A stretch of DNA of 64,000 bases from Hydrolagus colliei. Taxonomy: Eukaryota. The notes under the pieces are model-generated. The model did no database searches, was not told the DNA's origin, and saw only the letters and a list, made by a program, of their open reading frames with translations. The DNA lies in contig CM068758.1 of assembly GCA_035084275.1 (NCBI GenBank), forward strand, positions 3,658,001 to 3,722,000, in the 5' to 3' direction. The translations under genes and the position numbers were made by a program. Numbering within the stretch: position 1 is the first letter of the stretch; every line of letters begins with the position of its first letter. Positions 16,700-62,494 of the stretch are shown piece by piece.

Positions 16700-16857
16700 C
16701 TGAAAGAAAAAAAGAGATCCATTAGATTGAATCAATCTGTAACATCAGGTTTGATTTGAGAAGCAGAGACTGTTTGGAAGTTCCACAGTTTGGATCAGAT
16801 AAACCATGGAGAATGCCAACTCCACTCTGCTCTCTTAGTCAGACATGATATTGTGGA

Positions 16858-34200: not shown

Positions 34201-34392
34201 CTCACTCACAGTCAATCAGGTCTTATGAACTTCCACACGCCTAATGATCAGATTAAACCCACTGAACTGGATGTGTAAAGGCGCTGAGGGAACACATAAA
34301 AAGAGACACACAATTCCTAACCACAATAACAAGCTGAGTTATAAACCACACTGGGATAGGAATCTCTGTGTGTGTGTGTCTGTCTCTCCTAC

Positions 34393-34515
34393 CTCCTGGT
34401 ACTGGCTGTCCTCAGGCTGGAAGTCGCTGCTGATGGTTTCCAGCTGGATAGTGAAATGCGGGAGACGGTGGAGGAGTTTGACCCACCAGGGAGGGGAGTA
34501 ATTCACCGCCGCCAT
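34393..34515 (-). CDS. TTYH3: Tweety homolog 3, coding exon 1 (start codon)
   Basis: Translates MAAVNYSPPWWVKLLHRLPHFTIQLETISSDFQPEDSQYQE, matching the tweety N-terminus. 123 nt, donor GAG|GTAGGA. Confidence 0.95.
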
Positions 34516-41160: not shown

Positions 41161-41342
41161 TCACTTCCTGTACCTGACATCTCCCTTCATCGTCGTCGCC
41201 GTCGTGGCGGCTGCGGTGGTGGTGATGGTCTTGTGTGAGTTTGTCCCAGTTGTCCCACGTGTCCGGATGCCCAAGGCAAGTCCCTTCTTGAAGTTGCCGG
41301 GATGTGCCACGAGCTGCTGTGTGTGTGTCCCGTCACCTGGGC
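41161..41342 (-). CDS. KIF19: KIF19-like last coding exon with stop
   Basis: (G)PGDGTHTQQLVAHPGNFKKG...MKGDVRYRK*; the GPGD start matches KIF19; phase 1 fits. Confidence 0.8.
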
Positions 41343-43878
41343 CTGTCATCGTCAGTATTGTTACAAACGTAATAATAATACTATAATAATAATCCTTGCG
41401 TTTTGATATAGATACCTTATCGACGTCTCAAAAGCGCTTCACAGAATAGACTATCAAGTGAACTGATTGTGTATATTTTGCGGGCGAAACGCGGCAGCCA
41501 ATTGCGCACAGCAGCAACCCCCACACAAACAGTCGTGGATTGAAAATGACCAATTTTTATTCTTATGGGTTTTTTTGGACAGATTATCAGATTATTTGGA
41601 CCAGGCGCGTGTGTGTTGAGTAAGGAAACTTGCTCAAGATTTCACCCTGATCTGCCTGGATTCGAACACAGATCTCTCAACGCTTATAAGGCGAGTGAGT
41701 GAGTGCTCTAACCCACTGAGCTAAAAGGAGGTCCAATAACTACAACCGCAACAATCTGTTATATCTATAGTTCCAGCTGTAGCATCCCACCAGACAAGCA
41801 GTAGATCCATTCTGCCGGCAGTAAATGTCAATAGGTGTGACACCGACAGTCCATTTAACCCTCAGATACCTTCTGCTGCTTGAAAGGCGATGCATTTATC
41901 GCTCGGAAAGGCCTCTGGAAATTCGGGTCATTAAAAGGATTCGACACTTCAACGCCAGCCAGCCGAGCTGAGCCAAGACCATCAATAAATAACACTCCAG
42001 CCATTCTCTGCACTGGCTCTCTCTCTCGCTCTCTCTCTCCCCACGCTTCTCACGTTGAAAATCAAATAAAATCAAAAGATTTCACCCATAAATCTACCGC
42101 CATCCAAACATGAATCAGACTTTCCCAGGTTTTTTCCCCCCAAAGAGGTTAGCGGTGTATCGTTGCCAGTTGTTTGACTTGCCAGCGTACCTGTCTTTCT
42201 CACTTAATATCTCATTAACCGCGGGGAAAAGGATTACCCCCCCACCCCCCCCAAAAACAAACGTGTGTGTGTCTCTGCAGAGACAATAAATATGCCTGGG
42301 ACAATTATTTACAAGGGTCTTGTAATAAATTTCAGTGCGCGGCTTATAAAAGGCCAATTTGCTACAGTTATGATTCAGGCTGTTTAAATGAATGATTCCG
42401 CAGCTGAATCTCACTCACAGCTGAAATTGCCCAGTTCCTCAGCTGCCAAGCCTTGACAGCACAAGGCTGTCTGAAAATAACTCACTGAGTCGCATGAGTG
42501 AACACACTGCACGCAGAGGTTTCATTGAAATTCAACCGTGTTCCGACGAGGGACTTGTTACATATGGAGTCCTGCAGTGTACCGGTTAGAGCGCTCGCCC
42601 GGGCCAACGAGAAGACCCAGGTTCGATTCCCAGCCCGAAGCCAGGCCGAAACCATACAGACAGGTTTCCTTATATTGTACTCCCAGGGATAATAATTCCT
42701 CCAAAATTAAAACGCCTTCACTCAATCCACGAATGTTCGAGGGAACGGGTTGTTCGTCGATTATTGCGCGGGATTGCGTATCCGGGGGACTAATAACCCC
42801 TTCGAATTAAATTTAACAATAATACGTTGGACACTGCTGCCTGACTGCAATTGGCTGCCGCATTTTGCTGGCAAAACAAGTCAATTCACTTTTGCAGTAT
42901 ATCCCGCTTTGAGGCGTCTCAAATAAGTGAATAAGGTGCTATATCCTGTAGCTCAGTGGTTATTAGAGCCGCTCACTCACTCGCCTTACTAGCGTGAGAG
43001 ACCTGTGTTTAGAAGCCAGGCAGGTCAGAGCAAAACCTTGGACAAGTTTCCTTACTCCATACACACACACACTCACCCACCTACGCCTAATAGTAATATG
43101 TCAATAGAAAAACACAATAATTTTTTTTAATTGGTCATTTCAATCCACGACTGTTTGTGTATGTGTGTGTGGGGGGGGTGGGGGAAACTCTACTGTGCGC
43201 GTTTCGCTCTCCCACAAAAAAACACAGTCAATTCACTTGACAGTATATATGCTGAGAAGCGCTTTTGAGACGTCGATAAGATGTGAAAAGCCGCGATATC
43301 AAACGCCAGGATTATTATTATTATTATTATTAATATTGTATCAAATGCCAGGATTATGATTACGCTGGGTTATTATATTTAAACGTTGAACCCTGACCTT
43401 TGATTTGTTTGTGTAAGACCAGCCCCTTCCCCTCAGAGTGTCTCTGCTGGACTGTGCTCGGGGGAGTATTACACACCTCCAGCTTCTGCAATGGACTCTC
43501 ACCTGTGAATAAATCAAACGGCCGTCAGCAGATTGGATCGACGCTTATTTTACGAGTCCTGGACTCCCGTAGCAAGAGACCTGGGTTCAATTCCAAGCAA
43601 GTCATAGCGAAACCTTGGGCAAGGTTCCTTACACCACACACACACACACACACACAGCCTAATAATAGTCCCTCAAACAAAATACAACAATAAATTGGTC
43701 ATTTCAATACCTGTGGGAGAGCGAAATGCGACAGCCAATTGTGCACAGCAGCGTCTCCCCCACCCCCCCACACACACAAACAGTCGTGAACTGAAAATGA
43801 CCAATTTTTATTACTATTATAGATTTTGTTTCGTGACGGATTTTTATTACAGCGCGAAACAAAGGAAACCCCGGTTAC

Positions 43879-44080
43879 CTGAATGGTGGTTGAGTGGGAA
43901 CCTGACTTTGGTGGGCGGAGGGATGGTCCTGTCGGAGACCTTGCCGGCAATCCGGGCTCCGATCTTGGGCTGCGCGTAGTGGTTGGAATTCTGGAAGAGG
44001 CGGGGAGCGACCGTAAACCTGTGGTCGGAAATACTCTTGAGGTTTTGAGGCCGGGAGGGGTTCTGCCTGAGCCTGGGAAG
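43879..44080 (-). CDS. KIF19: KIF19-like exon 18
   Basis: LPRLRQNPSRPQNLKSISDHRFTV...IAGKVSDRTIPPPTKVRFPLNHHS (ISDHR and GKV as in KIF19); TAG/GTAAC, 202 nt. Confidence 0.85.
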
Positions 44081-44592
44081 CTACGAGAAGGGCGCGGATT
44101 TTTAATGACACAAGTTAGAATGATACTCATCCCGGCATTCGATACAGCCCCCGATCACATCTTCGAGACGTCTCAAAGCGCTTCACAAACTGTACTGCAA
44201 AGTGAATTGACTGTACGTTTGTGGGCGAAACGCGGCATGATGTCTCCAAGCACTTCACAGGTTAATTACGGACAAGCGCAGGATACACTGTAAAGTGTGA
44301 TGTGAATTGACTGTGTATTTTTGGTATATTGTAGATACCAGATTGACTGAATTGACTGTGTTTCTTTGGTACAGTATTTTGAGAATGACGTCTAGCAGCT
44401 ACAGCTCATCAATGTCCCCCTTTCTCCCCAACAATAATACGGTAATAATAATGATAAATATAATAATAACAGCAACAACAACACAGCGCCTTATCAGGTT
44501 GTTGAGACGTCTCAAAGCGCTTCCCAGAACATACCTGGGAAAGGCTATGTGACGGTGTACATGTGCGCGTGGCGTGTACCAGCCTCACTCAC

Positions 44593-45168
44593 CCCCTGAG
44601 AGTGAACCTCGAAAGATCGCGATCGTTTCTTCCTCAGCCTGTTCTCGGTGGGCTCCTCCCTCGGGTCGTATCTCCTCAGGGGCTTCGTGTTGGCCCGGCC
44701 TCCGCGGGGGGTCAGGGGTCGGCCGGAACCCTGGCGCGGGCCCCGCTCGAAGACCCCGGCCTCCGCCGAGAGCTCCGCCAGATTGGCCGCGGACGAGAGC
44801 TCAGAGTTCACGGCCGCGAAGTCCCTCTTCTTCAGGAGGACCGCCAGCCCCTGATTCTCCTTCTCGGTCTCCTCCTCCTCTTCCTCTTCCTCCTCCTCCT
44901 CCTCCTCGAGGGAATGGACAGACGCGGTATTCCTCTCCCTCTCTCTCAAGGACATCACTGTAGCCTTGAGGGGCAGGACCTGGGCTTTGGATCGGCGTTT
45001 GGCCGCGATGACAGAGATACTTTTGGTGCCTGTGACTATCTCCTCCAGGCGGCCAGAGCTCCACGGTTTGCTCGGGCCGTGAGGGATCTCGGACTTGCTG
45101 CTGTCCGTCTCCGAGGGAGTGCTGGACAGGCGACTGCGGCTGCGGTCCTTCAGGCTTAGCAGGTTCTG
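44593..45168 (-). CDS. KIF19: KIF19-like exon 17 (tail; poly-Glu)
   Basis: Contains EIVTGTKSISVIAAKRRSKA and RKKRSRSFEVHSQG, which are KIF19 tail motifs. AAG-CAG tandem acceptor (45168 or 45165), GTGAGT donor. Confidence 0.9.
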
Positions 45169-45333
45169 CTTCAGGGACACACACACACACACACACACCA
45201 AAGAGATTCAATCAAAATTCACCGGACTGGACAGCAAACATTCAACCCTCTCTGGGTGCGAAAAATGAAACACACACACCAGGTCAAAAACTAGATTGTT
45301 CCTTTGTGTTTCCGCCCACGAAACCTCACTAAC

Positions 45334-45439
45334 CTGCAGTAACAGAGGGCCGGGCAGACGGATGGGAGATGGCGTCAGCGTTGGCAACTGCTTCATGTAG
45401 CGCGACTGGGCAGTGGTGTTGAAGACTTTGATGGTGTCA
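45334..45439 (-). CDS. KIF19: KIF19-like exon 16
   Basis: DTIKVFNTTAQSRYMKQLPTLTPSPIRLPGPLLLQ (cf. KIF19 VFK...TPPPIQL); 106 nt. Confidence 0.82.
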
Positions 45440-46109
45440 CTGGGGGGGGGGGGGGGAAGCACACAATTCACACGTTACTGTACTTCGTTCCACCGTTCCG
45501 TCTTAAACCCATCTTTTATTTTAATATAAACGCTGTGACCCCAAAAAATGTCTTCAGTTGGAAGCCGCTGTCTCCTAACAAAAGGATCAGCCGTCCAATT
45601 TCAATTGGAAAGGGGTTTGAAGGGTTTCGCACGATCCTATGCTTTTATATTAAGATATAAAATGAGGTACTGTACTTTCGATATATCGAAACAGGCCATT
45701 CAGCAATAAAGGTGTGAAAATAATCTTTATTTCCTCTTGGAAAAAAAAATACCCCCAATCTTGTCACCAATGACCCCAATTTTCAAACCCAACTAATTCT
45801 CTCCGCTCAGCTAAAGACCTTGCTTTCAACTGTGCCTTCGGTCACCCCCCCCCACTCTCTCTCTCCCCCCTGGCTCGGGCCCCGGGATCCGTTATTGTGA
45901 AGCGCTCTGAGACGCCATCCGGCGTAGAGTGAGGGAGTGAGGGCGCGATATAAATCCAAGTTGTTGTTGCTCTCCGAGTTAACGGCCGACTTGACCATTT
46001 GGTCAACTCCCATCCCAACTGTTTCATGTCAGACACAATTATCACCAGAAAGGTTTTTTTTTAAAAAGTTTTGGGAAAAGGTTTATTATTTTGAAGCTGA
46101 AATACCCAC

Positions 46110-46282
46110 CCTTCGTGTTCAGAGAGGATGGGAGGCAGCGAGGAGTCCTTGGCCCTCGGATGAAGCAGTTTCTTACTCTCGTGGACAGCCATCCTCGGCC
46201 TCAGGTCGTCTTTACCGGGGTCCGTCGCCGCCACATACTCGCCCAGGTTTAGCTGGCGAGCGATGTTCAGGATGGTGCCATC
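46110..46282 (-). CDS. KIF19: KIF19-like exon 15
   Basis: DGTILNIARQLNLGEYVAATDPGKDDLRPRMAVHESKKLLHPRAKDSSLPPILSEHE; open frame, TAG/GTGGGT, 173 nt. Phases fit both neighbours. Confidence 0.8.
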
Positions 46283-46881
46283 CTAGTCAGACACACGGCA
46301 GTTAACACCCTGGGACTCTTCGGGAACTGGGAACAGCCATTAAACTCCCTTACAACAACAACAACAACATTTACAATGTATAAGCCGCGCCTTTCATGTC
46401 AGGGAGACGGTCCCGACCTCTCCTTCCTAAGCGAGAAACTTGGGATCATTTTTCCGGGGGAAATTGGCTCCCGCGTTTCGCCCACAAAAAATAGTCAATT
46501 CACTTGACAGTATACTACTGTGAAGCACTTTGAGACACAGTCTAGAAGACGTGAAAAGCCGCTGAATCAAATGCAAGTATTATTATTATTATTATTACCC
46601 TTTGGTACTCTCTCCCTAAACTCCTCTGCCCCCACTGCCTCACACCCTCTCCCCCTCCCCACAAAAACACTCCCTCTCTCCACCTTTAAAAGATTCCTGA
46701 AGGCGTTCGTCTTTGACTGAGCCTCCCTTCACTGGGAGGATATACTGTCAAGTGAATTGACTGTATATTTGTGGGCGAAACGCAGCAGCCCAATTGACTC
46801 GAGAGAGGGGATGGACTGTTGGGTTAACAGGCGAGGTGGAGGCTGTGTGTGTGTGTGTGTGTGCGTGTGCGTGTGCTTTAC

Positions 46882-47003
46882 CCTCAGTGTGTTTGCGGTG
46901 ATGGTGTGGAGGGTAGACAGACTTTCCAGCGTCCCCCCTTCCATCTCCTCAAAGTAGATAGCATAGAGCTCCTGCAGCTGCTTGGGAACCTGTAAGTTGT
47001 GGT
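46882..47003 (-). CDS. KIF19: KIF19-like exon 14
   Basis: (D)HNLQVPKQLQELYAIYFEEMEGGTLESLSTLHTITANTLR; 122 nt. Confidence 0.9.
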
Positions 47004-47100
47004 CTGGAGGGAGACAGGAACACAAGAAATCAGCAGCCAGACTCGCTCACTAAATACAACAACAACAACAAAATTGCACTTATATAGCGCCTTTCACGTC

Positions 47101-47180
47101 GGGAGGGGGGGAGGGAGGGAGGGAGGGGGGGAGGGAGGGAGGGAGGGAGGGAGGGGGGGAGGGAGGGAGGGAAAGGGAAA
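47101..47180 (+). repeat. (GGGA)n purine tract, G-quadruplex/triplex-prone
   Basis: More than 12 consecutive G3+ runs; a similar (GGGT)n tract lies at 57767-57860. Confidence 0.85.
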
Positions 47181-49078
47181 GACATTTGGACAATTCAATC
47201 GATGGCTGGAATTCTCAGTGACATTTTATCCGTTGATGATGTGGTCGCGCGGGGAGCCTCCAAGTGCCTGAGCGAATACGAATGATAAGAATGGCAAACT
47301 ATTCACGAGGGCTCACTTTAATTACAGCAGTAAGCCATCTCCCGAGTCTCACACAAGGGAAGGCTTCAGATATTACCAAACCAAATCACATTAAAGGCGT
47401 ACAGAACTGCGTCTGTGGGGCACACGCCGTGAGGGTAGAAGGAATCCTGAGTGTACAATTAAGATCCATTAAAATTCAATGAAAACCCAGAAAACACCGA
47501 GAGGCAAAAACAAAAATCGGCGAGGCTGAGGCTGAGACTGTCTAGCGCAATGTCTGACGAACGATTGTATTTCCCAGCGTTAAATGCCGGCCCAGAGCAC
47601 TGAACGAGATCACTTTACGGCGGATTTTACCTGTAGCTCAGTGGGTTAGAGACACTCGCTCGCCTTACAAGCGTGAGAGAGAACCTGTGTTTCGAATCCA
47701 GGCAGGTCAGGTTCGAGCCAAACCTTGGGCAAGTTTCCTTACTCCACACACACAGACACACACCTAATAATAATCCATCGATCCCTCCCTCTGCCTCGCC
47801 CCCTCCCGCTGCCTCTCCTCCTCCCTCCCTTCCCATCCTCAAATCCTGCCTGTGATTTTTTATTTATTATTAAAGACCTTCCTTTTTGATCGCGCTTACA
47901 GTCACGTCTCCCCCACCGCAACCTCCCCCTCTCCCCTCCCACCCTCTGCCACCCACCGCACCCCCCCCCCCCCCCCCCCCCACCAGCCTCTCCCCAGCTC
48001 AGAGTTCAGTCTCCCCCACTGTCGAGGTCTCTGGGAAGCCTTGTCACCTGATTGCCACTCGTGTAAACGCCACTTGAAGCATTTAATGGTGCCTTACAGG
48101 AAAAACCTGAAGTAGTTTCTCTCGCTTCTCTCTCTCTGGCTTTCTCTAGTTCTCTGTGTCTCCCTCTCCTGGTCTACATACAGGCCAACAAATGCATGTA
48201 TATAATATATATGTATCAAATAATAACCCTCTCGGTGTCTCCCATCGCGTGGCTGTGTGCAGGGAGATTGCCGTGAGCAAACTAAGGCGCGAGATGGGCG
48301 TGACACACACACACGCGCGTGCGCGCACGCACACACGACCACAACACTTTATAGGAAACCCAGGCCGAAGGATTCGAGGGGGTTCCACTGGGGTTGTGAA
48401 ACAACAATAACAACAACAACAAAATGACACTTGTACAGATAGAGCCTTTCACGTCAGGAGGACGTCCCGAGGCGCTGGACAGTCACTGCGTCAGACCCGA
48501 GCTGAGGAGAGGGGGAGAGAGGGAAGGGAAATGGGGCGGGGGGGGGGGATTAGGAGTTGCTGATGGGTCCATCGAAGAGGAGAGTCTTGAGGTGAGACTT
48601 GAAGGCGGCCAGGGAGGGGGGAGCGAGGCGGGGAGGGACTGCGGGATGGAATTCCAGAGGTTGGGGGAAGGCAGAGTGGCTGAGCCGAGGGAGGGAGGGA
48701 GGGAGGGTCGGTGGGTTGCAGGTTGGTAAGGGGATGGTATAATAGTATTATTATACTAATAATAATCCCTACTAAAAAAAGACAATAGAATTGGTCATTT
48801 TCAATCGATGACTGTTTGTGGGGGGGACGCTGCTGTGCGCAATTAATCGGCTGCCGCGTTTCGCCCACATGTACACAGTCAATTCACTTTACAGCATATT
48901 CTGTGAAGCGCTTTGAGACACAGTCTGGAAGACCTGAAAAGTCTCTGTATCAAATGCAAGGATTATTATCATCAATAATAGATCACGGACGTAGAGGGGT
49001 GGGGTGGGAGGGGAGGGACGAGACGAGACGAGGTTGTGGAGGGCTTTAAACGCCAGGGCTCTGGGGGCAGCCGCGTAC

Positions 49079-49337
49079 CCTCTATGAGCTGCCTCTGTTG
49101 CTGGATCACCTCATCGCAGAGGGTTCTGTGCTGCTCGTATCGTTGGATGACAAAGTCCTTCTGCTGGTGGAGATCCTCTTTGCGCAGGGCTGCCGACTGT
49201 ATCTCCGTGTTCTCCACCTCCAGCTCGTGTACCTTACACAGCAAGCTCAGGACCTCCTGCTGGTCCTCGCTGCTCAGGCATTTGGGCAACACCTCCTCCA
49301 TCTTGCAGACCTTCACCTTGGTGTCTCCTAGTTTCTG
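49079..49337 (-). CDS. KIF19: KIF19-like exon 13 (5' end in assembly gap)
   Basis: QKLGDTKVKVCKMEEVLPKCLSSEDQQEVLSLLCKVHELEVENTEIQS...HRTLCDEVIQQQRQLIE; donor G|GTACGC. Confidence 0.92.
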
Positions 49338-49590
49338 NNNNNNNNNNNNNNNNNNNNNNNNNNNNNNNNNNNNNNNNNNNNNNNNNNNNNNNNNNNNNNN
49401 NNNNNNNNNNNNNNNNNNNNNNNNNNNNNNNNNNNNNNNNNNNNNNNNNNNNNNNNNNNNNNNNNNNNNNNNNNNNNNNNNNNNNNNNNNNNNNNNNNNN
49501 NNNNNNNNNNNNNNNNNNNNNNNNNNNNNNNNNNNNNNNNNNNNNNNNNNNNNNNNNNNNNNNNNNNNNNNNNNNNNNNNNNNNNNNNNN
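49338..49590. other. Assembly gap (253 N)
   Basis: Run of N that probably hides the acceptor and about 4 codons of KIF19-like exon 13. Confidence 1.
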
Positions 49591-50044
49591 NATGATAACA
49601 ATATTAATAATGTTCGTAAATCAGTCACTTTTAACCCACGACTGTTTTTTTGTGGTGGGGACGCTGCTGTGCATAATTGACTGTCGCGTTTCTCCCACAA
49701 AACATGCAGTCAGTTCGCTTTACACTACGTTCAGGTGAAGCGCTTTGAGACGTCTCGGAGACGTGATGCGGCTCTACGTGAAATGCAAGGATTATGATTA
49801 TATTATTAACATTTCTCCTTCCCCCACCACTCCCCCCCCCCCCCCCTCCCTCCCCCACCCCCCACCCCACAAAGTAGAGCCTAGTGCGGAGTGGGAGAGA
49901 GAGAGAGAACGGGTGTTGGGTTACAGGGAACATCTTTTGATCTGTCTCAGAAATAAAATCTCTTTCGCCGGGAGTCCGAAAGTCAGTAATGGTTCCCAGC
50001 CACCGAAAAATGTTTGCCAACCGACGCTCTGAGGTTTGTCTCAC

Positions 50045-50297
50045 CTTAAGGACAGCCGTTTTCCTTTGTTCGGCTAAAAGCATGGTGATCTCCTCCCGAG
50101 CCATAGTGACTTCAACAGGCTCGCTCGTGTCCGAGTCTCCGCCTGTCCCGGATTGCTTTCCTCCACCTCTTCCTCCCACTCTCCCTCCTCCTTCTCCTCC
50201 CCCTCCCCCTCCGCCAGACTCCTTCCTCTGACCCGCTTTCTCCCTCCATTGCTCTTCCCTCCACCTCCGAGCCCGGTCGGCTTTCTCCCGTTCCCAG
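50045..50297 (-). CDS. KIF19: KIF19-like exon 12 (Gly-rich insert)
   Basis: WEREKADRARRWREEQW...DTSEPVEVTMAREEITMLLAEQRKTAVLK; 253 nt, in phase. Confidence 0.9.
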
Positions 50298-50952
50298 CTG
50301 AAAGAAAACATGAGCTCAGGTCGACCCTTCCACCCGAGAACTTTCCGAACCCGAAACAATTACGGTGGAGAAACAAATGCGAGTTGTGGGAAAGGTGCGT
50401 GTACTAGGTGGGGGGGGGGGGAGGTAGGAGTGGGGGTGTTTGTGGTGGGGGGGTGAGCTGCTGTGATAGAATCTGAGAGCGAAGGAGGAGTCCGCGTCTG
50501 TGCTTTGAAAGAACCGCTAACCCACCACCCACCCACCTCCGCACCCCCCTCCACCCTGCTCTCTCCCAAATGCCCGGCACATCTTAATCTCTCCGCGCAA
50601 CTATCCCAATCCCTATCGAAAGGGAGTATTTAACGCCGAAGCGCAAAGACAAGGAATTCTATATTTGCCAGATAAATATATCATTAAATTGGTCATTTCG
50701 ATCCGCGGCTGTTTCTGTGTGTGTTGGGGGTGTGGGGGGGGAACGTGCGTAAACGGCTGCCCGCGTTTCGCTCTCCCACAAAAATATATATATATATATA
50801 CACAGTCAATTCACTTGACAGTATAAACAACAACAACAACAACTCGCACGTAGGTGTACAGCGCCCCCTTCAGGCAGGGGTAGCTCCCTCTCACCCACCC
50901 ACCCAGACACACACACACAGTTCCCGCCCTCCCTCCCTCCCGGGTTACTCAC

Positions 50953-51127
50953 TCGGCTATGGTGAGCAGGTGCCTGGAGGTGTTGATGTGAAGCTCGATG
51001 TTGGTGTTCTCCAGCTCCATCAGGCTGCGGCGTATCTCCATCTGTTGCCGGAACGCACTCCTCAGCTGCTCCCGGACTCTGCCCATCTCTCCCCGGTTAC
51101 ACCGCACTGAGTGTTGCTGGACCTCCG
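50953..51127 (-). CDS. KIF19: KIF19-like exon 11
   Basis: (A)EVQQHSVRCNRGEMGRVREQLRSAFRQQMEIRRSLMELENTNIELHINTSRHLLTIA; 175 nt, GTGAGT donor. Confidence 0.94.
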
Positions 51128-52612
51128 CTGGAAGTGCGCAGACAAGACGATACATACAGTCATATACAATAATAACAATAATAATAATAATAATAATCCT
51201 TGTCATTTGATACAGCGGCTTTTCACATCTTATCGACTGTGTCCCAAAGCGCTTCACAGAATATACTGTAAAGTGAATTGACTGTACATATATAATATAT
51301 ATTTGTGGGTGAAACGCGGCAGCCGATTGCGCACAGCAGCGTTTCTTCCCCCCCACCCCCCCCCCCGCACACACACACACACACACAAACAGTCATGGGT
51401 TGAAAATGACTAATTTGATTATTGTGCTTATTTTTTTGGGGGGGGGGGAACGGATTATCATTAGGCGCGTGTGTGTGTGTGTGTGTGTGTGTGTGGAGAG
51501 TAAGGAAACTTGCCCAAGGTTTCGCCCTTGACCTGACCTGTCTGGATTCGAACACAGGTCTCTCTCACGCTTGTAAGGCGAGTGAGTGAGCGCTCTAACC
51601 CACTGAGCTCCAGGAGCTCCACACATCCAAGATATCTACAGCCGTGAAGGAGTTTGGAACAAGAGCATTTGTTCTCTCTGGTTCCCCCAGCTTATTCCCC
51701 CCTTTTTTTTCTCTTCCCCCCCACTTCTCCCCTCTTCCCAATTGGGAATTCTGATCATGGAGTCCCCTGTAGTTCAGTGGGTTAGAGCGCTCGCCTTACA
51801 AGCGTGAGACCTGTGTTCGAATCCAGGCAGGTCAGGTCAGGGTGAAACCTTGGGCAAATTCAAACCGTCAAATCCTTCTCTCATTTTTTTCTCTCAAAGC
51901 AGCCAGTTTCCAGAAAGACAGACAGACACACACACACACACACACCCTGCACACGTATAACAGAACCTCCCACGTGTTGTGTTTCTGACAGGCCGAGGTC
52001 GGGACTGCGCTCGATCGATTCCGTAAGCGAATGATCCAAACTAAATATGGCTGGAGGACATATGAACTGTTGTCCAGCAGTGGGCAATGTCACTTAGCAA
52101 ATAGCTCCAGCTTCCTGTGCTGCAGTGTGTTTAGTCTGTACACGTCTCTCTCTCTCTGTTTATAATAATAATACTGTAATAATAAGCCTTACATTTTGAG
52201 ATAGCAGCTTTACACATCTTATCGACGTCTCAAAAGCGCTTCACGGAATGCACTGTAAAGTACTGTACTGTATATATTTGTATATATTCTTTAAAAAACA
52301 ATACTAAAATTGTCAATTTTATTCCGTTCATTTTCAATCCACGACTGTTTGTGTGTGAGGGAACGGATGCTGCTGTGCGTAATCGGCAGCCGAGTTTCGC
52401 CCACAAATATATATATATATATATACAGTCAATTCACTTTACAGTATATATTCTGTGAAGCGCTTTGAGACATCGATGAGATGTGAAAAGCCGCGATATC
52501 AAATGCAAGGATTATTATAATAATAATAATTATTATTATTATTATTATTATGTTCCTCCGGATTTTCAATCCCCGGGTCTCTCTGGCTTGCGAGGCCGAG
52601 CACTTCACCTAC

Positions 52613-52768
52613 CCTGAATGTCTCTATATTGGCCTTTTCCAATCTCCGTCGCTCGGGACCCTGCTCATCGATCTTGGATTAGAGCCGGTCGATTTCCTTC
52701 CTGAGATCGGTGATGATGTTGGTGTACTGGGTGATGTGATACGAGATGTTCAACAGGTTGCGTTTCAC
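52613..52768 (-). CDS. KIF19: KIF19-like exon 10 (neck/coiled coil), disrupted as assembled
   Basis: VKRNLLNISYHITQYTNIITDLRKEIDRL*SKIDEQG...; TAA at 52681-52679. The exon is 156 nt to the homologous donor but needs 3n+1. Confidence 0.88.
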
Positions 52769-52845
52769 CTGAAGAAGTCCAAAGGGGGTGGGTGGGGGGG
52801 GAATGAGAAAAACCAAGAGAAAGGTTTATAAAAAATACTCCCATA

Positions 52846-53698
52846 TGTTGGAAACTGATGGGTATGGGCACCATAGACTGGACAGTACCAGTTTATGACT
52901 CTCGATTTGCGGAGTATGAGAGATAAGGGCCATCTGGACACAAGGAAAAGCTTTGAAGCGTGGATTGGGAGAATGGAATGCTTGTCTAATGTCTTCGAGT
53001 GTAAACGAACCACTCTTGTAGGGACAGCAGAGTAGTGTAAACATGACTCCCTCCTGTCCCAGGTTGGACAGGACAAAGAAAGGGACAAATGATGGATCAC
53101 AAATCTTGGTACTAGCCAGGAAGGATGTCAGCTAAGGAGGTTGGCATCAACAGAGTGTTCTTCTCTGATTGGAACTGAGATAAGGAAGCTACTGTGTCTA
53201 CATTACTCTGCAACTCCCATTAATATCATTAGACAAGACAAAGAAGATGTTAGAACATCAGAGATGAGGGTAAGGTTGGGACTGGTCAGGGTCAGGAGGA
53301 TTTCTGGGTATAAAGATAGGAGAGAAAGAGTGTCTCATTACAACAGTTGGGGAGTGTCTCAGAGTAAACTGAGATCTCCAGCCTGACACTGTTGTCCAGA
53401 ACTACTGTAACAGGTCATGGTTCAGTTGTTTTGTTTTACAGGCAGTTAGATCAGTTCGACCCGTAGACTTGCAGGACCAGTCCAGATAAAGCATCAGTAT
53501 AGCAGCCGACAGAATGAACACCATCTTGAGACCAACCCACGTTCGATTCAGCTGAATCCTGTTTTAACCGATAGTATACCTCTGTATTTTAACCAGTCTG
53601 TATTTCACACTGTGTGAGTTTATATATATTAAAAACTATACCTTTTATTAAGGATTGTTGGGTCATCATTTGAACTCTCGGGATCGGAAATTCCAACA
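52846..53698 (+). mobile_element. Solo LTR (ERV class I- or gypsy-like), 853 bp
   Basis: Termini TGTTGGAA...TTCCAACA form a perfect 8-bp inverted repeat (TG...CA). Flanked by a CATA duplication (52842-52845 and 53699-53702). TATAAA at ~53309, ATTAAA at ~53628. Confidence 0.85.
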
Positions 53699-54919
53699 CA
53701 TATCTCTCTCTCCAATTTTAGTCTACTGTATCACATGAAGCGCTTTGAGACGTCTCAACAAAGTGATCACAAAGCGATTTGCGTTTGATACAGCGGCTTT
53801 TCACGTCTTCTTGACTGCGTCTCAAAGCGCTTCACAGAATACACTGTAAATTGAATTGACTGCACGTATATTTTGTGGGCGAATACGCAGGCAGCCAATT
53901 ACGCACACAAGCAGCAACCCCCACAAACAGTCGCGGGTTGAGTGACCAAATTATTATTGGGGGGTTTCATGAGGTTTTATTATCAGGTGTGTGTGTGGAG
54001 TAAGGAAACTTTGCGCAAAGTTTCGCCCTGACTTCCAGACGTGCCTGGAATCAAACCCAGGTCTCTCTCTCAAGCTCGCTTGCTGAGTGGTCTAACCACC
54101 GAGCTACAGGACTCACGAGTTAAATCACTCATACACCACACAGTATTCTTGTTTTTAATTTACGCTTTCAAAATGATCGATGTTTTTGCAGTGTGCGGAG
54201 ATTTCAAGAGAGACTGGCAGTTTCTGCGGCTGCTACCAACCGTGCTGAAATATGTCCTGTCTGAATGATGGATTCCCTTCCCTTCCCTACCACTCCTCTG
54301 ATACGCAGTATACAACCAAGAAGCTTTTGTCTCCACTTAGAGTTAATAGCCAAACCTGAAGCTGGATTGTAATGGAATTATTGGGCAGGAGGAGTAATAA
54401 TAATAATAATAATAATACAATCCCTCCCCCCCCAAAAAAAACTCACAATAATAAAATTGGTCATTTCAATTCACGACTGTTTGTGTATCAAACGCAATCC
54501 TTGCATTTGATAGCGCGGCTTTTCGCATCTTATCGATGTCTCAAAGCGCTTCGCAGAATAGACTGTAAAGTGAATTGACTGTATATTTTGTGGGTGAAAC
54601 GCGGCAGCCAATTGCGCACAGCAGCATCCCCCTCCCCACACAAACAGTCGTGGATTGAAAATGACCAAGTTTTATTCTTGTGGTTTTTGGGGGGACGGAT
54701 TATTATTAGGTGTGTGTGTGTGTAGTAAGGAAACTTGCCCAAGGTTTCGCCCTGATCTGTCTGGATTCGAACACAGGTCTCTCCCACGTCTGTAAGGAGG
54801 CGAGTGAGTGGCTCTAACCACTGAGCTAATAGTAGAGTCCACATTAGTTACAGTAACTGCACCTTAAGCCGGACTGAGAGAGCGCCCACAGCTCACCTCC
54901 ACAGGCGAAACCCGCTTAC

Positions 54920-55042
54920 CCTGGTTTTAATGTTCTTGGCACGGTCAGCGTAGATCAGGGTGTTCCTGGATTCCTCAAACGAGGGGCTGGCGGGGCTGAT
55001 GTGAGCGATCATGACTGTCCTGCTGTTTCCGCCCAGCGAGTC
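54920..55042 (-). CDS. KIF19: KIF19-like exon 9 (end of motor domain)
   Basis: [41 protein letters not shown]; 123 nt, GTAAGC donor. Confidence 0.96.
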
Positions 55043-55353
55043 CTGAAGCAGAACAAAAAAAAACAACCAAAGTCACAGAAACTCGATGCAAAAACAACAG
55101 CCGTTTCGGGAGACAATTAAACAGCCATTAATAATAATAAATCATCAGAGTAATCATAATAACCATTGTATTTGATATAGCGCCTTATCACATCTTATCG
55201 ACGTCTCAAAGCGCTTCACAGAATATACTGTAAAGTGAATTGACTCTGTATATATTTGTGGGCGAAACGCGGCAGCCGATTGCGCACAGCAGCGTGTGTC
55301 CCCCCAACTGTGGGGAGGGGGAGGGAAGGGGGTGGGGATTGGGAGTCAGATAC

Positions 55354-55506
55354 CTTGAGCAGGCGGGTGAGTTTGCTGTCTCTGTAGTTGACGTACTGCG
55401 TGCGGTTTGCCCCCTTCTCACTCAGCGCGTTGATGCAGTTGCCGAGAGCCAGCAGGGAGCGGTTGATGTGAGCGCCTTCTTTCATTCGCTTGCCCGTGTT
55501 CTGTGT
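55354..55506 (-). CDS. KIF19: KIF19-like exon 8
   Basis: [51 protein letters not shown]; 153 nt. Confidence 0.96.
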
Positions 55507-55564
55507 CTGTCCATCGATTGATTAAAACAGAAGAAAGAAAAAAAAGGAAAAAAGATTTTCTATC

Positions 55565-56010
55565 AAAATATAGAAATGTAGGAACAAGGAGGAGGAGGAG
55601 GCCATAATTCAGCCCCTCGAGCCAGTTCCACCATTCTATTATTATCAGGGCTGATCAGTAACTTAAATTGTTTATGGAATTCTCTGCCTGGAAGGGCTGT
55701 TCGATGCTCAGTCAGTCCTTGAAACATAATCAAGACTGAGACTGATAAGATTTCTTATGGATAAAGGGATTAGGGGGATATGGGGATAAAGCGGAGGCAG
55801 GTGGGAGTTAGATTAGAAGATCAGCCGTGATCTTATTGAATGGCGGGGGTAGGGGGTGGGGGGGGGCAGGCTCGAGGGGCTGAATGGCCTACTCCCCTGC
55901 TCCTAATTTTTACTGTTCTTATGTAAAGGCAGGTAATGTGGAGGTTGAGGTACAGACAGACCAGCTATGGTCCAATAGAATGGCAGAACAGGCTGGAGGG
56001 GCTGAAGGGA
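55565..56010. mobile_element. Cluster of CR1-like 3' ends in opposite orientations
   Basis: A minus copy at ~55565-55660, then a plus copy at ~55670-55905 ending GGCTCGAGGGGCTGAATGGCCTACTCC, plus a short remnant at ~55960-56010. Confidence 0.7.
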
Positions 56011-56030
56011 GGGAGGGAGGGATAGGAAGA

Positions 56031-56158
56031 TTTGATTGATTGATTGATTGATTGATTGCTCGATTGATTGATTGATTGCTCGATTGATTGATTGCTCGAT
56101 TGATTGATTGCTCGATTGATTAATTGCTCGATTGATCGATTGATTGATCGATTGATTG
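56031..56158. repeat. (GATT)n microsatellite with interspersed GCTC units
   Basis: TTGATTGATTGATT...GCTCGATTGATTGATTGCTCGA visible directly. Confidence 0.95.
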
Positions 56159-56241
56159 CATGTGGGGAGGAGGTGAGGGGGTGAGTGAGGGGCTGGGTGA
56201 GGGAGAGAGGTGAGAGATGGGAGGAGGTTGGGGTGAGGAAC

Positions 56242-56436
56242 CTGCGAGGCCCTCTCTGATCCCGCGAGGTCGATCATAAAAAGCCGTCCGACCCGGATCT
56301 CCTCCATGATGCTCTTCACTCTGCTCTTCTGTTTGACGGTAACCTGGAGGACGGCGTGAGAGCGAGAGGAAGTCCTGTTGGCCGCGGTGGGCTCCTGGGT
56401 TCGCTGACGGTTTCCTTTAGTCAGGAGCTGCATAAT
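56242..56436 (-). CDS. KIF19: KIF19-like exon 7 (switch I SSRSH, switch II DLAGSE)
   Basis: IMQLLTKGNRQRTQEPTAANRTSSRSHAVLQV...GRLFMIDLAGSERASQ; 195 nt. Confidence 0.96.
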
Positions 56437-57137
56437 CTGAGGCCAACAGAAATCCCGCGGAGAGTAGGGCAGTCACTAACCACACAACAAACTCACCCGT
56501 TTTTTTAAAGAAAAAACAACCCTCGTATCTCAGTGGGTTAGAGCCACTCCACTTCACCTTACAAGCCAGAGGACCTGGGTTCAATTCCAAGCAGGACAAG
56601 TCAGGTCAAGTCAGGTCGAAACCTTGGGCAAGTTTCGCTTACTCCACAGTTCACACACACAGGCGCTTCACACAAACACCACACACGCCTGTTAATAATT
56701 CCTCCAAAATAAAAAAAAGCAATAATAAATTAGTCGTTTCAACCCACGGCTGTCTGTGTGTGTGGCGGGGGGGACACTGCTGTGCGCAATTGGCTCCCAC
56801 GTTTCACTCACAAAATATATACAGTCAATTCACTTGACGGCATATCCTGTGAAGCGCTTTCAGACACAGTCTTTGAGACGTCTCGGAGTCGCGATCGGGC
56901 GCTGTATCAAATGCCAGGATTATTATTGGCATCGTTTTGTTCTTCTTATTATTATTATTTCACCCATAAATATATATACAGTCAATTCACTTTACAGTAT
57001 ATTCCCGTGAAGCCCTTTGAGACACAGTCTAGAAGACGTGAAAAGCAGTTTATATCAAATGCAAGGATTATTTCTTATTATTATTTTTACTATTATGATC
57101 ACTGGTTGTTCTGGTTATTGTTAGTCGGGCGTTGTAC

Positions 57138-57263
57138 CTCCATGGCGTTGCTGGTTGAGAATTCCGTGATCCCCGCTATCTGGATCCCGCCCTTGGAATC
57201 TTCCCGCAGATCCAGAAATCCCGAACACGGATTCAAGAGGTCGCGGATCATTTCATTGTAAAT
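57138..57263 (-). CDS. KIF19: KIF19-like exon 6
   Basis: IYNEMIRDLLNPCSGFLDLREDSKGGIQIAGITEFSTSNAME; 126 nt. Confidence 0.95.
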
Positions 57264-57576
57264 CTGAAACAAGTGAAAAGGTGTGGCTGCGGAATGCAGT
57301 CGATGCTTGGGCAAGTTTCCTGACTCCACACACACACACACACACACTCATACAGAAACACACAGAAATACCCACACAGAAATACACACACACACACTTG
57401 ATAATAATCCCTCAAAAAAACCACAATAGCAGCATGAGTGAGTGAGTGAGTTTGCTCGCTCTCTCGCTCGCTCGTTCGCTCGCTCATTCGCTCGTTGAGT
57501 GAGTGAGTTTGCTCGTTCGTTCATTAATTCGTTTGTTCGCTCACTCGTTGACTGAGTGAGTGGGTTTGGGGTTTAC

Positions 57577-57713
57577 CTCTAAGTAGGACATTGAGACGTT
57601 GTACTGCATGCTCTCACTGGTGGCTTCAATGGCGCGGAACAGGTCGTTGAGTGTGCGGATGTAGATGCCAGGCTCACAGTGCATCCCCAGCATAGTGTAG
57701 GTCTTCCCAGCCC
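57577..57713 (-). CDS. KIF19: KIF19-like exon 5 (P-loop GPTGAGKT)
   Basis: (G)AGKTYTMLGMHCEPGIYIRTLNDLFRAIEATSESMQYNVSMSYLE; 137 nt. Confidence 0.95.
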
Positions 57714-58207
57714 CTGAGCTCAACAGAACAATGGCGTCAACTTCCACCTTCAGTTGGCAGAGAGCCTGGGTGGGTGGGGTGGATGGGTGTGTGGGTGGGT
57801 GAGTGGGTGTGTGGCTGGGTGGGGTGTGTGGGTGGGTGTGTATATGGGTGGGTGAGTGGGCGATAGCGGGAGGGACAGTTTCACGCGCACCTCTCTGACT
57901 CGTTCGTTTCTCTCCTTAATGGGGCAGAGGTGGGGGACGATTGGAGTACAGAGTCAAGTAGAGTCGAGTAGAGTAGAGTAGAGGACAGGCTCAAAGGGGG
58001 TGAATGGCCTCCCTCCTGCTTTTCCCCATTATCCAAAGAAGGGAAAGGGGAAACGGAACAGAAACGGGGTTTAAAGCGTTTTTTTTAAAAGGGAAAGTGA
58101 ACGGTTTGTGTCGGGGAGGGGATGAATGTTACATAAAACATCATGTGGGCAAATCGATTTGATTAATGTATCCCCAACCCACCCACCCACCCACCTACCC
58201 ACACTAC

Positions 58208-58295
58208 CTGTGGGTCCATAGGCAAAGACAGTGGCATTATATCCCGAAATGACACCTTCTATCAGGTCCTTGGTGGTGGCCATGTAAACATCTTC
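58208..58295 (-). CDS. KIF19: KIF19-like exon 4
   Basis: EDVYMATTKDLIEGVISGYNATVFAYGPT; 88 nt, AG/GT. Confidence 0.94.
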
Positions 58296-58429
58296 CTGGA
58301 AACACAGTACAAATGGCTTTAGTTTACAGGGAGTTTGACGGTGGGAGAGTTTACTGACTCCACACACACACACACACACACACACCCATACCCACAAACA
58401 CATACCCACACACACACACCACCACCCCC

Positions 58430-58642
58430 CCTCATTCCACTTGTATTCTATGACCAAGCTTTTCTTATATGACAAAATAACTAGCGACATACACAACCAG
58501 GGGAATAACAATTAAATGTACAATTTGGAAGCCTATAAAACGCTTAATAAGAGAGCTCAATAAATCAATGTACCGCCACCTGTACCCCCTGGAAGTCATT
58601 TTTACCCCCTGGGGTACGTGTACCTCTGGTTGAGAACCGCTG
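58430..58642. mobile_element. hAT/Charlie-like DNA transposon terminal fragment
   Basis: Ends ...GTACCTCTGGTTGAGAACCGCTG (Charlie-type TIR) with subterminal TACCCCCTGG repeats, followed by TTCTAGAA. The left boundary is uncertain. Confidence 0.65.
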
Positions 58643-58754
58643 TTCTAGAAGACGTGAAAAGCCGCCATAGCAAATGCAAGGATTATTCTAGTTATGTATT
58701 CCTATCATCTCAAAGGTCTTCACACAAGGTTCACGCCAATACCCAGGCTCCCAC

Positions 58755-58865
58755 CTGCGAGGCCGTGTGATCAAACACTACATCGAATATGAAGGTCCGC
58801 TCGCGAGATCGATTGGCTCGGAGGATGTCATCAGGGTCTTCGGTTGGATCCATCAAAACCACCAT
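58755..58865 (-). CDS. KIF19: KIF19-like exon 3
   Basis: MVVLMDPTEDPDDILRANRSRERTFIFDVVFDHTASQ; 111 nt, AG/GT. Confidence 0.94.
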
Positions 58866-61635
58866 CTGCCCATCCAGAGAGAGAAGACAATAGAGGAACC
58901 AATTTACATCGATATCAACAACAGCAGCCAACAACAACAACAAAATTACATTGATAGAAACGCCTCTCATGTCAGGGAGGACGTCTCAAAGCGCTTGACG
59001 CAATATATTGTGAAGAGAATTGACCAAATATTTGTGAGAGAAACACGGCAGTGAAATGCGCACAGCAGCATCCCTCCTTCCACCCCCCCCCACCCACCCC
59101 CACAAACAGTCGTGGATTGGAATGGCCAATTTTATTATAGTTGGTTTTTTGAGGGATTATTATTATTATTATTATTATCAGGCGTATGGAGTAAGATTTC
59201 ACCCTGCCTGGAATTGAACCCAGGTCTCTCACCTGTAAGGAAAGAGTGCTCCAACCACCGAGGTGTATTATAGGAGATGATCGCGTCCTTCACGCCTGGC
59301 AGCTACACATAATATACTGTTGGAAGGAGGGGGGTTGATTGTGTATTTCGTGGGGCGAAATTGTGCAGTAGACAGCCACTGAGGCACCGCAGTTATATAC
59401 TCATATATAGTCTTTACTATGAGAGACGTAAACTGATAACACAAGTCTAACAGCAGCCGTATCGAGGTTAGCATCCAGACATTCCAATAATAATAATACT
59501 AATATTAATCCTTGCAGTTCATGTAGTGATCTGTCACTTCTTGGAGACGCCTCAAAGCATTTATACTATTCATAATAATCCCTAAGAACAAAACCACAAT
59601 AACAAAAATTGGTCATTTCAACCCACGACTATTTGTGTGTGGGGGGGAGGGAACGGGGGGGGGAAACGCCGCCGCTGTGCGCAATTGGCTGCCTGCCGCG
59701 TTTCGCCCTCCCACAAATATACATACAGTCAGTTCACTTTACAGTATATATTCTGTGAAGCGCTTTGAGACACAGTCGACAAGATGTGAAAAAGCCGCGA
59801 TATAAAAATGCAAGGATTATTATTAGTAGTATTAGTATTATTATTGGCTCATTGGCCAAACACTCACTGGGATCCTGGGGCCCCACAGTGAAAGTCGACC
59901 TTCTTTTTTTTAATTTATTACTATTATTATTGTCCAATTGCCAGACACGAGTTTTGAAACTCGCAGAGCAAACGCACGCACAGCAGATTAAACCGCAACC
60001 ACCCACCACCGAGTTGAACAACAAGTTTGCGACTCCTATTGTGTCCAAAAGGCCATGTTTCTTCCTAAGCCACCTGCCCGAGCAAGCATCTTACAAGTAA
60101 TTTATTAACCAATTAATTTTGCGCTGAATTATTTCGATCAATAAAAACGCAAGAAAGACACATGGGAGGGCATGTTTAAACCTGTCTGAAAACAGACTAA
60201 TCAAACCTGAAAACAGACTAATCAAATATATGAAGGCAGCAGGCACTGGCAGCTCACTAAAAATCCATTCCATTTAGGAGGCAAAGGGGGGAACTATTAG
60301 ATGACTTAACAGCTGTATGAAACACAACAGTGAGTTAATAGACCAATGAGCGTGCTGAGAAAAATATCTCGTTGATTTATTTTAGCACCAATAAATCTCT
60401 CTAATGTGCACAGCAAACCCCACTGGCTCTCAGGCTAACTTCACATTACAGTCACTTCAATAGGTTTAGATGCCCTACCCTCCCACCTCCTCTCTCTCTC
60501 TCCCTCTGCCCTGCCAACTCATACCAGCTTCAAATCCCCCCTGTGCGTGCGTGCGTGCAGTAAACTTGCCCAAGGTGTCGTCACCCTGTATAATATATTT
60601 GTGGGTGAAACGTGGCAGCCAATCGCGAAAAGCAGCAAAGTCCCCCCACAAACAGTCGTGGATTGAAAATGACCAATTTATTATAGGTTTTATAAAAAAA
60701 TTCCTGAGGGATTATTATCAGGCATGTGTGTGTGTGTGTGCGCGCGTGTGTGTAGTAAGGAAACTTGCCCAAGGTTTCGCCCTGACCTAACCTGACCTGC
60801 TGGGAATCGAACCCAGGTCCTCTGACTTGTGAGGTGCGTGCTCTAACCCACTGAGCTACAATATCCTCCGCTGTCTATAAAAAGCACACCACGGCCTCGG
60901 GCCTCGTTCAACCCAATGGGGTCCTGAAAACAGCCAAAGTCAATAATTACAAACTAACGTAGTTTTCATCTGTACTGGGAGCGGTGAATGGGAAACAAAC
61001 CCATTTGTATTTTTTTTCTCCCCCTGACTTGTGTTGCCAAGGAAATGACTTCCATTCTACAACATTCCTCAATCCAGCCGAGCTCATTTCTGTTTGGACG
61101 CAGGACAGAGGCTTCAGCTATTTCCGAACATCTAGGGTTCCCTCAGGGGAGCTCCTGTAGCTCTCAGTGGGTTAGAGCACTCGCTCACTCACTCCCTCCC
61201 TCCCTCCCTCACTCACTCACTCACCTTTACAGGTGTGAGAGTGACCTGCGTTCAAATCCAGGCAGTTTCAGGGCGAAACCTAGGACAAGTTTCCTTACTA
61301 CACACACACACACAGACACACACTTGCCCTTAATAATAATCCATAAAAAAAACCTCACAATAATAAAATTGGTCTTTTCAATCCACGACTGTTCGTGTGT
61401 GGGGGGACGCTGCTGTGCACCATTGGCTGCCGCGTTTCTCCCACAAATATACATAGTCAATTCACTTTACAGTATATTCCGTGAAGCGCTTTGAGACGTC
61501 GATAAGGTGTGAAAAGCCGTGATATCAAATGCCAAGATTATTATTATCATTATTATTATCGTGGAGTTCCTTCAAACAAAGAGAGTCTGTCCTCAATTAA
61601 ACCGTCCTCTGATTTCTGAGGCGGAAACGACATGC

Positions 61636-61667
<32 letters not shown>

Positions 61668-62413
61668 TAAACCGCAGGCAAGGTTCCTAATGCAATGTGC
61701 AGATGAACTGATTAGCAACAAAAAAACTGGCCTGGGGTGGGGTGGGGCGGGAGGAGTGGGGTGGGGGTGCAAGGCATTGTCTGACACTGTCATTTTGGTG
61801 CCAGTAAAACATCTTGAGAGCTCAGGCCGTCACTATGCCTCACGTCAGATGTTTTATGGAGCGCCTATCCTTGTTCTATGACGCCTACAATACTCTGTCT
61901 GTCCTGCTCACTGGGGCGTTCCTACACTCCTCCCTGTTCCTACACTCCTGGCCTTCCCTGTGACCCTCGCTACTGAACCCTCTACAGGTTGGTCACCACC
62001 AACAAGGCCTTGGACCAACACGGACATCCCCAGCCTCCTCAATGCTCGCCCTTTGGATGCAGTTTTTTTTCTGAAAGGCTTTCTAATCAATCTCTGGTGT
62101 AGCCCCCCCATCCCCACCACCACCCACCCACCCACCCTCCCCTCTACCTCTACCTTCCCTTCCAACCTATTTTATTGACCTCAAAAGGTTTGAATGGACT
62201 TTTTTGAGCATCAAAACCAAAATGTTAAAAATCCATTCACTGCCGATCGAATGAGTGAAACTCTGGAACTTTCTTCTTCCTCCCCTCCGTCTTGTTCCCT
62301 CCCTCCCTCCCTGGTGGTGGTATGAACAGACTAAACCAGTCCTTCAAATTGGAGCACAGCGTCCAATGGCGTCAGCGCCATGTGGCTCCAGCAAACAGTA
62401 GGAGCCACGTTAC

Positions 62414-62494
62414 CTGATCGTCCACCTTGTGAGCGATGATGATGGCTCCTTCATCAAGCTCCGGCTCATTGATGGGCCTGATCCGCAAAGCCAC
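62414..62494 (-). CDS. KIF19: KIF19-family kinesin-8, exon 2 (motor start)
   Basis: VALRIRPINEPELDEGAIIIAHKVDDQ; CAG acceptor, GTAAC donor, 81 nt. Confidence 0.93.

What the first reader, a model, noticed from the sequence alone, without database searches (positions are those of the whole stretch)
52609..52768. KIF19-like gene has a stop codon and a frameshift in exon 10 only, with a nearby frame-restoring donor
Seen: exon 10 reads ...EIDRL-TAA-SKIDEQ, where KIF19 has RL-K-RKIDEQ, so AAA>TAA is a single change. Later, ATAGAGACATTCAG appears one base short of I-R-D-I-Q, leaving the exon 156 nt when 3n+1 is required. A second donor 4 nt downstream (GTAG|GTGAAG, exon end 52609, 160 nt) would restore the frame. 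All other visible exons are open, with intact motor motifs and splice sites. Inference, three options: a very recent pseudogenisation or polymorphic null allele; a truncated motor-plus-neck product (about 380 aa, likely an NMD target); or two base-call errors in a draft assembly.
Basis: partly seen in the sequence, partly recalled or inferred. Interest (0 to 1): 0.7.

Follow-up and report, generated by a model that had tools for sequence, protein, structure and literature searches.

The report
Probable assembly error in KIF19 paralogue
The stop codon and missing base in this chimaera-type fish's kinesin gene are in the assembled genome but absent from all three independent DNA data sets that cover the spot, so they are most likely an assembly error and the gene is likely an ordinary intact one.

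Summary
Exon 10 (52768-52613, minus strand) has TAA at 52681-52679 and is 156 nt where 157 is needed. With those two letters, exon 10 is 157 nt and the 20-exon gene gives one open frame of 1,123 aa. That protein is orthologous to Callorhinchus milii KIF19 P0002 and belongs to the TTYH3-linked paralogue clade (KIF19B type), not to human KIF19. The 'rescuing donor' is only the GT at +5/+6 of an ordinary donor (6 of 19 donors here have one) and lies downstream of the stop, so it rescues nothing. The gene is not lost in the species. A local consensus error is most likely (about 0.78). A real rare null haplotype in the assembled animal stays possible (about 0.17), because contigs hide minor alleles, the assembly is otherwise clean, and no run is known to be that animal. 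RNA gave no test. The scan's index showed no earlier KIF19 finding.

The parts
41161..62494 (-). KIF19-family (kinesin-8) gene of the TTYH3-linked paralogue clade, exons 2-20. Exon 1 (36 nt, ATG) lies about 2.7 kb beyond the window end, in L007.
   Evidence: tblastn of C. milii P0002 and exon model; tree
52613..52768 (-). Exon 10: 156 nt as assembled, 157 nt in runs X1, X2 and X7
52679..52681 (-). In-frame TAA in the assembly. Runs X1, X2 and X7 read + strand T at 52681, i.e. AAA (Lys), as in the C. milii orthologue.
52625..52626 (-). One base missing in the assembly. Runs X1, X2 and X7 carry + strand G behind 52625, giving N-I-R-D-I-Q as in the orthologue.
52607..52612 (-).
   Evidence: sequence; 6 of 19 donors have GT at +5/+6; local PWM score 8.8 vs 4.4 bits
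52605..52606 (-). Third difference, in the intron. X1 has one more base here. X7 shows a substitution at 52605 plus an insertion behind 52602. X2 does not cover it.
54920..62494 (-). Exons 2-9: intact motor domain (GPTGAGKT, SSRSHA, DLAGSE); 97.6% identical to C. milii over the 379 residues before the stop
41161..51127 (-). Exons 11-20 (stalk and tail): open to the natural TGA; 88% (stalk) and 78% (tail) identical to C. milii
566..34515 (-). Neighbouring TTYH3 gene (12 matched exon pieces in the window, continuing beyond its left end); synteny marker and local quality control

Best explanation
The TAA and the one-base deletion are in this assembly but not in three independent DNA data sets, so they are most likely a local consensus error in a gene that is likely an intact kinesin-8 of the KIF19B type. 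Shown: three differences from run X1 lie within 77 bp (52605-52681), with none in the rest of its 509-bp piece. With the letters shown by the runs, exon 10 is 157 nt, uses the normal GTAGGT donor and gives a 1,123-aa open frame. Inferred: a short patch of poorly supported consensus produced two one-base deletions and one substitution. By family knowledge the protein would be a microtubule-depolymerising plus-end motor, like mouse KIF19A, which limits cilium length; this was not tested here.
For:: 3 of 3 runs covering the sites (X1 depth 24.9, X2 2.75, X7 5.1; three samples, three studies) show both corrections; no laid contig carries either lesion. X1 matches the window at every other base of a 509-bp piece and X2 of a 354-bp piece, while X6 (organism B) has 6 substitutions and 3 gaps in 338 bp and X7 has 5 and 5 in 295 bp. 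Organism A is therefore likely the window's species or very close to it, and X7 is likely a relative (it shares 52806 and 52781 with X6), which makes the intact state ancestral; the C. milii orthologue reads RLKSKIDEQ...ANIRDIQAEVQ, and the shark and ray orthologues listed keep Lys at the stop position and ANIRDIQAEVQ; the other 19 exons are open with canonical donors, and the excess of lineage-specific changes is no greater after the stop than before (5:1 vs 55:18, Fisher p=1.0; 4 of 4 outgroups not significant); lesion clustering p about 0.03 within the CDS. Weak hint: relative to repeat depth, X2 covers this locus 4-7 times less than X1, so the spot may sequence poorly in some libraries. 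False stops and frameshifts from assembly are a described class (PMC9516821, passages).
Against: The assembly is generally clean. 143 of 148 GPCR matches have no stop and 124 span nearly the whole domain, 1 of these with a stop (counted by eye; biased because only the best 147 of 2,019 candidates were scored). TTYH3 and the C27 paralogue show no clear exonic stop (stops seen lie at match edges or in intron read-through). Logan contigs collapse heterozygous sites, so a minor null allele would be invisible. No run is known to come from the assembled animal. X2's contig is below the depth-5 caution level and X7's only just above it. Clustering of all three differences is only p about 0.06. A random substitution in this exon gives a stop only 22 of 468 times (4.7%). 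The protein evolves faster than in C. milii (about 3:1 by alignment, 4-8:1 by the HSP method), perhaps more so than the controls.
Confidence: 0.78

Rival explanations
1. The assembled animal really carries a rare or heterozygous null haplotype: one complex mutation event, or a second hit on an already dead allele. The assembler emitted it, while other individuals carry the intact allele. Its mRNA would be degraded by NMD (stop 66 nt before the exon end, ten introns downstream).
For: The assembly looks clean elsewhere. Contigs hide minor alleles (tool caveat). An intact paralogue on C27 could buffer the loss. One rate test hints at extra acceleration of this gene: 40:5 vs 41:19 in the paralogue, Fisher p=0.018; p=0.13 vs TTYH3. 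A human symbol KIF19BP exists (PMC12388004, appendix list); that it marks a pseudogene of this paralogue is recalled.
Against: 0 of 3 covering runs show either lesion. An old dead allele should have lesions spread along the gene, yet both sit within 56 nt (p about 0.03) and 432 flanking bases equal X1. The rate excess is lineage-wide (paralogue 2-3:1, TTYH3 about 3:1) and depends on the method (60:19 by alignment).
Confidence: 0.17
2. The gene is a recent unitary pseudogene, fixed in a species that is not among the laid runs.
For: Organism names are coded, so identity of organism A with the window's species is inferred, not shown. The best holder shares only 0.52 of words.
Against: X1 and X2 equal the window at every other base, including intron, unlike X6 and X7. 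The 0.52 share fits a 509-bp piece of an 841-bp, repeat-rich query. There are no other lesions and no extra decay after the stop.
Confidence: 0.03
3. The locus makes a functional variant: a 379-aa motor-plus-neck protein, or a full-length protein by way of the donor at 52608 (with stop read-through).
For: The 160-nt exon does restore the frame.
Against: The stop precedes both donors. The second GT is the +5/+6 of the normal donor (6 of 19 donors) and scores 4.4 vs 8.8 bits. GYNNGY donors are the commonest tandem 5' sites and mostly noise (PMC4267661, abstract and introduction). The runs do not carry the lesions.
Confidence: 0.02

Closest known systems
Callorhinchus milii kinesin-like protein KIF19 (P0002/P0001; same record length as its TTYH3, P0121)
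   Same: Orthologue: sister to the window gene in the tree; all 20 exons match in order; 97.6% identical before the stop; identical RLKSKIDEQ and ANIRDIQAEVQ once the run letters are used.
   Different: No stop or frameshift. It has an N-terminal MKE that the window gene lacks, and shorter Gly-rich (exon 12), Glu-rich (exon 17) and Thr/Ala-rich (exon 20) tracts.
KIF19A (human KIF19, P0106; mouse Kif19a, ciliary length control, Niwa 2012 as tabulated in PMC9083010, passage)
   Same: Same family; kinesin-8 motor motifs present; exon 10 position and length shared with this genome's C27 copy.
   Different: Separate clade (support 0.99 vs 1.0). This genome's KIF19A-type copy is on C27 and shows no clear lesion. 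The window gene is the other paralogue, whose function is untested.
False gene loss from assembly error (premature stop and frameshift classes, Kim et al. 2022, PMC9516821, passages)
   Same: An in-frame stop and a small indel in an otherwise intact gene that other sequence data contradict.
   Different: That study judged errors with mapped reads at each site. Here only contigs of samples not known to be the assembled animal were available.
GYNNGY tandem 5' splice sites (Wang et al. 2014, PMC4267661, abstract and introduction)
   Same: GTAGGT is a GYNNGY motif with two GTs 4 nt apart.
   Different: No evidence that the distal GT is used here.

Membership tests
KIF19 / kinesin-8 | N-terminal kinesin motor with P-loop, switch I and switch II | tested here: met
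   PF00225 on exon 7 and on the orthologue; GPTGAGKT, SSRSHA and DLAGSE in the model (motif names recalled)
KIF19 / kinesin-8 | Best relatives are KIF19 proteins | tested here: met
   Top named hits are KIF19 or kinesin-like; best is C. milii at 97%
KIF19 / kinesin-8 | Plus-end motility and microtubule depolymerisation at ciliary tips | not testable with these tools
   Needs an assay
KIF19A orthologues (human KIF19) | Groups with human KIF19 in a tree | tested here: not met
   Human KIF19 groups with the C27 paralogue; the window gene falls in the other clade (46 of 120 listed proteins chosen for length and taxon spread, plus 2 own; midpoint root, no outgroup)
TTYH3-linked KIF19 paralogue (KIF19B type) | Separate clade and linkage to TTYH3 | tested here: met
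   Clade of 21, support 1.0. TTYH3 is adjacent in the window.
TTYH3-linked KIF19 paralogue (KIF19B type) | Orthology to mouse Kif19b / human KIF19BP | not tested
   No such sequence was identified among the hits. The names appear in PMC12439720 and PMC12388004 (passages); their position beside TTYH3 is recalled.
Unitary pseudogene (fixed loss) | Lesions shared by independent individuals | tested here: not met
   0 of 3 covering runs
Unitary pseudogene (fixed loss) | Further lesions or relaxed selection | tested here: inconclusive
   No other lesion. Protein rate excess is similar before and after the stop and largely lineage-wide. dN/dS was not computed because no orthologous CDS was at hand.
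Polymorphic pseudogene (segregating null) | Null allele seen in raw reads of at least one individual | tested here: inconclusive
   Only contigs were available for DNA; minor alleles are hidden
Assembly error (false loss) | Reads of the assembled individual disagree with the consensus | tested here: inconclusive
   Three runs disagree, but none is known to be the assembled individual
Alternatively used GYNNGY donor | RNA reads use the distal GT | tested here: inconclusive
   X14 gave 0 reads, so no test

The most novel reading that the evidence does not exclude
A real double-hit null haplotype of the little-studied KIF19B-type paralogue segregates in a chimaera, catching the loss of a dispensable kinesin-8 duplicate while it is still polymorphic.
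Probability: 0.17. Interest if true: 0.4.

Novelty: not a real feature. Interest (0 to 1): 0.08.

Why it matters
As an artefact it matters only for annotation: pipelines would mark this gene as a pseudogene, and gene-loss screens would count a false loss in chimaeras. It also shows that a generally clean chromosome-scale assembly may hold isolated error clusters, so other single-exon 'lesions' in this genome need a read check. If the allele were real, it would be a natural knockout of a paralogue for which the searches here listed no paper with the name in title or abstract, apart from one Gm4869 abstract hit that I did not read.

Tried and rejected
(1) RNA: no RNA holder listed. X14, a single-cell RNA run of organism B with about 27% read, laid 0 reads, which is no test. 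(2) X6 does not cover 52560-52704, so it gives no test of either lesion. (3) The Pfam kinesin search of the own genome was useless as an error rate, because matches run exon by exon and stops can come from introns; they were not inspected one by one. (4) One search had off-by-one exon ends for exons 1, 11, 14, 16 and 20; its translation and rate figures are void and were replaced. (5) Skipping exon 10 does not restore the frame. (6) Two compensating frameshifts in the G-rich exon 12 were suspected and rejected: the exon is open in the frame matching both ends, and one C. milii model has a similar Gly run. (7) A weak IL17 Pfam hit at 37524-37703 (E 0.004, below cut-off) was rejected: it lies on what looks like repeat-derived sequence running into a microsatellite. 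The IL-17N paper search (listing only) was not pursued. (8) Scan look-ups for KIF19 words and for nearby notes returned nothing. (9) No structure prediction was run, as it would not decide the question. No supplements were consulted.

Full report
Observation. The window's minus strand shows exon 10 at 52768-52613 with TAA at 52681-52679 and a GTAGGT donor, giving 156 nt. The own genome (1.003 Gb, 532 contigs) holds the same letters on C25, plus one 81% match on C27. That paralogue's exon 10 is open and 157 nt (read from the L002 sequence). As assembled, the frame stops after 379 aa. The normal donor then runs out of frame into exon 11, the GT at 52608 gives 160 nt and restores the frame, and skipping exon 10 does not.

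What the gene is. Exon 7 finds C. milii KIF19 at 97%, so the organism is likely a holocephalan. tblastn places all 20 exons of C. milii P0002, with exon 1 about 2.7 kb beyond the window. All 19 donors are GT; the start of exon 13 lies under N and is untested. The downstream neighbour is TTYH3. The tree used 48 sequences: 46 of the 120 proteins listed, chosen by me for length and taxon spread, plus the window model and the C27 copy (first 700 aa, 682 columns, midpoint root). The window gene is sister to P0002 in a clade of 21 (support 1.0). Human KIF19 and the C27 copy fall in the other clade of 27 (0.99). In 7 of 8 species of the first clade listed in both searches, the KIF19 and TTYH3 records share a contig length; 0 of 3 in the second clade do (by eye). 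I call it KIF19B type. The names KIF19B and KIF19BP occur in print (PMC12439720, PMC12388004, PMC9083010, PMC4559828; passages), but their link to TTYH3 is recalled.

Decisive test. 15 runs were listed and 5 were laid. X1 and X2 (organism A, two samples, two studies) and X7 (a third study) cover both sites. All three read T at + 52681 (AAA, Lys) and have G put in behind 52625. X6 does not reach the sites, and the RNA run X14 laid no reads. With those two letters exon 10 is 157 nt, reads RLKSKIDEQ...ANIRDIQ|AEVQ exactly as C. milii, and the gene gives 1,123 aa with only the terminal stop (four masked codons as X). X1 also has one more base at 52605, in the intron. All three X1 differences lie within 77 bp; the rest of its 509-bp piece, and of X2's 354-bp piece, equal the window. 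X6 and X7 differ at several intron sites and share two of them. Organism A is thus likely the window's species or very close, X7 a relative, and the intact state ancestral (inferred). The gene is therefore not lost in the species.

The second donor. It is the GT at +5/+6 of the ordinary donor; 6 of 19 donors of this gene have one. It scores 4.4 against 8.8 bits on a small matrix built from the gene's other 18 donors. GYNNGY is the commonest tandem donor form and mostly noise (PMC4267661, abstract and introduction). It lies downstream of the stop and cannot rescue the protein.

Error or rare allele. For error: no covering run has the lesions. The two lesions are 56 nt apart in 3,372 nt (p about 0.03), and three differences in 77 of 509 bp has p about 0.06. 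There is no other lesion, and the rate excess over C. milii is the same before and after the stop (5:1 vs 55:18, p=1.0). X2 seems to cover this locus 4-7 times less than X1 relative to repeats, a weak hint since summed depth is a poor measure. False stops and frameshifts are known assembly faults (PMC9516821, passages).

Against error: the assembly looks clean, with 143 of 148 GPCR matches stop-free (a selected best set) and TTYH3 and the paralogue without clear exonic stops. Contigs hide minor alleles, no run is known to be the assembled animal, and only 4.7% of substitutions in this exon give a stop. One method hints at faster change in this gene than in controls (40:5 vs 41:19, p=0.018; p=0.13 vs TTYH3). 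However, the controls are also 2-3.5 times faster than C. milii, and the alignment method gives about 3:1 for this gene. An earlier scan note reports a frameshift in another gene of this genome (untested lead), which could be a second such error.

Verdict. Most likely a local consensus error in an ordinary intact kinesin-8 paralogue (0.78); rare real null haplotype 0.17; fixed loss 0.03; functional variant 0.02. Shown: the lesions in the assembly, their absence in three runs, the open frame with the run letters, and the clade. Inferred: species identity of organism A, the cause of the discrepancy, and the protein's ciliary role. Interest 0.08.

Noticed in passing
L007, about 2.7 kb beyond the window end (exon 1): The first Met of C. 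milii (MKEMGG) is absent. The frame reads RTEMGG with no upstream in-frame ATG before a stop, so the second Met would be the start; a short out-of-frame upstream ORF ends shortly before it. Not checked in reads.
   Followed up: partly
window 50045-50297 (-), exon 12: A G-rich expansion encodes a Gly run where sharks have a short acidic linker. The two C. milii gene models disagree here.
   Followed up: partly
window 45165-45170 (-), exon 17 acceptor: The acceptor reads AAG|CAG (NAGNAG-like). The Lys present in C. milii and sharks is missing if the first AG is used, and both choices stay in frame.
   Followed up: no
window about 44870-44910 and 41190-41225 (-): Poly-Glu (GAG repeat) and Thr/Ala expansions of about 11 residues each in the tail, absent from C. 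milii.
   Followed up: no
tree: The TTYH3-linked KIF19 paralogue is present in sharks, rays, bichir, basal teleosts, caecilians, turtles and platypus, all annotated simply as KIF19. No therian, squamate or crocodilian sequence in my selection fell in this clade; the selection was partial, so this is no proof of loss.
   Followed up: partly
G000:C21:10991575-10992357 (+): A full-length GPCR match with one internal TAA: a pseudogene or another isolated error.
   Followed up: no
window 37524-37703 (-): Weak IL17 Pfam hit, judged spurious.
   Followed up: yes
window 52850-53400 and most introns: Intron 9 holds high-copy repeat fragments (depth in the thousands). Nearly every intron carries copies of one SINE-like element with a TAA-repeat end (seen by eye).
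   Followed up: no
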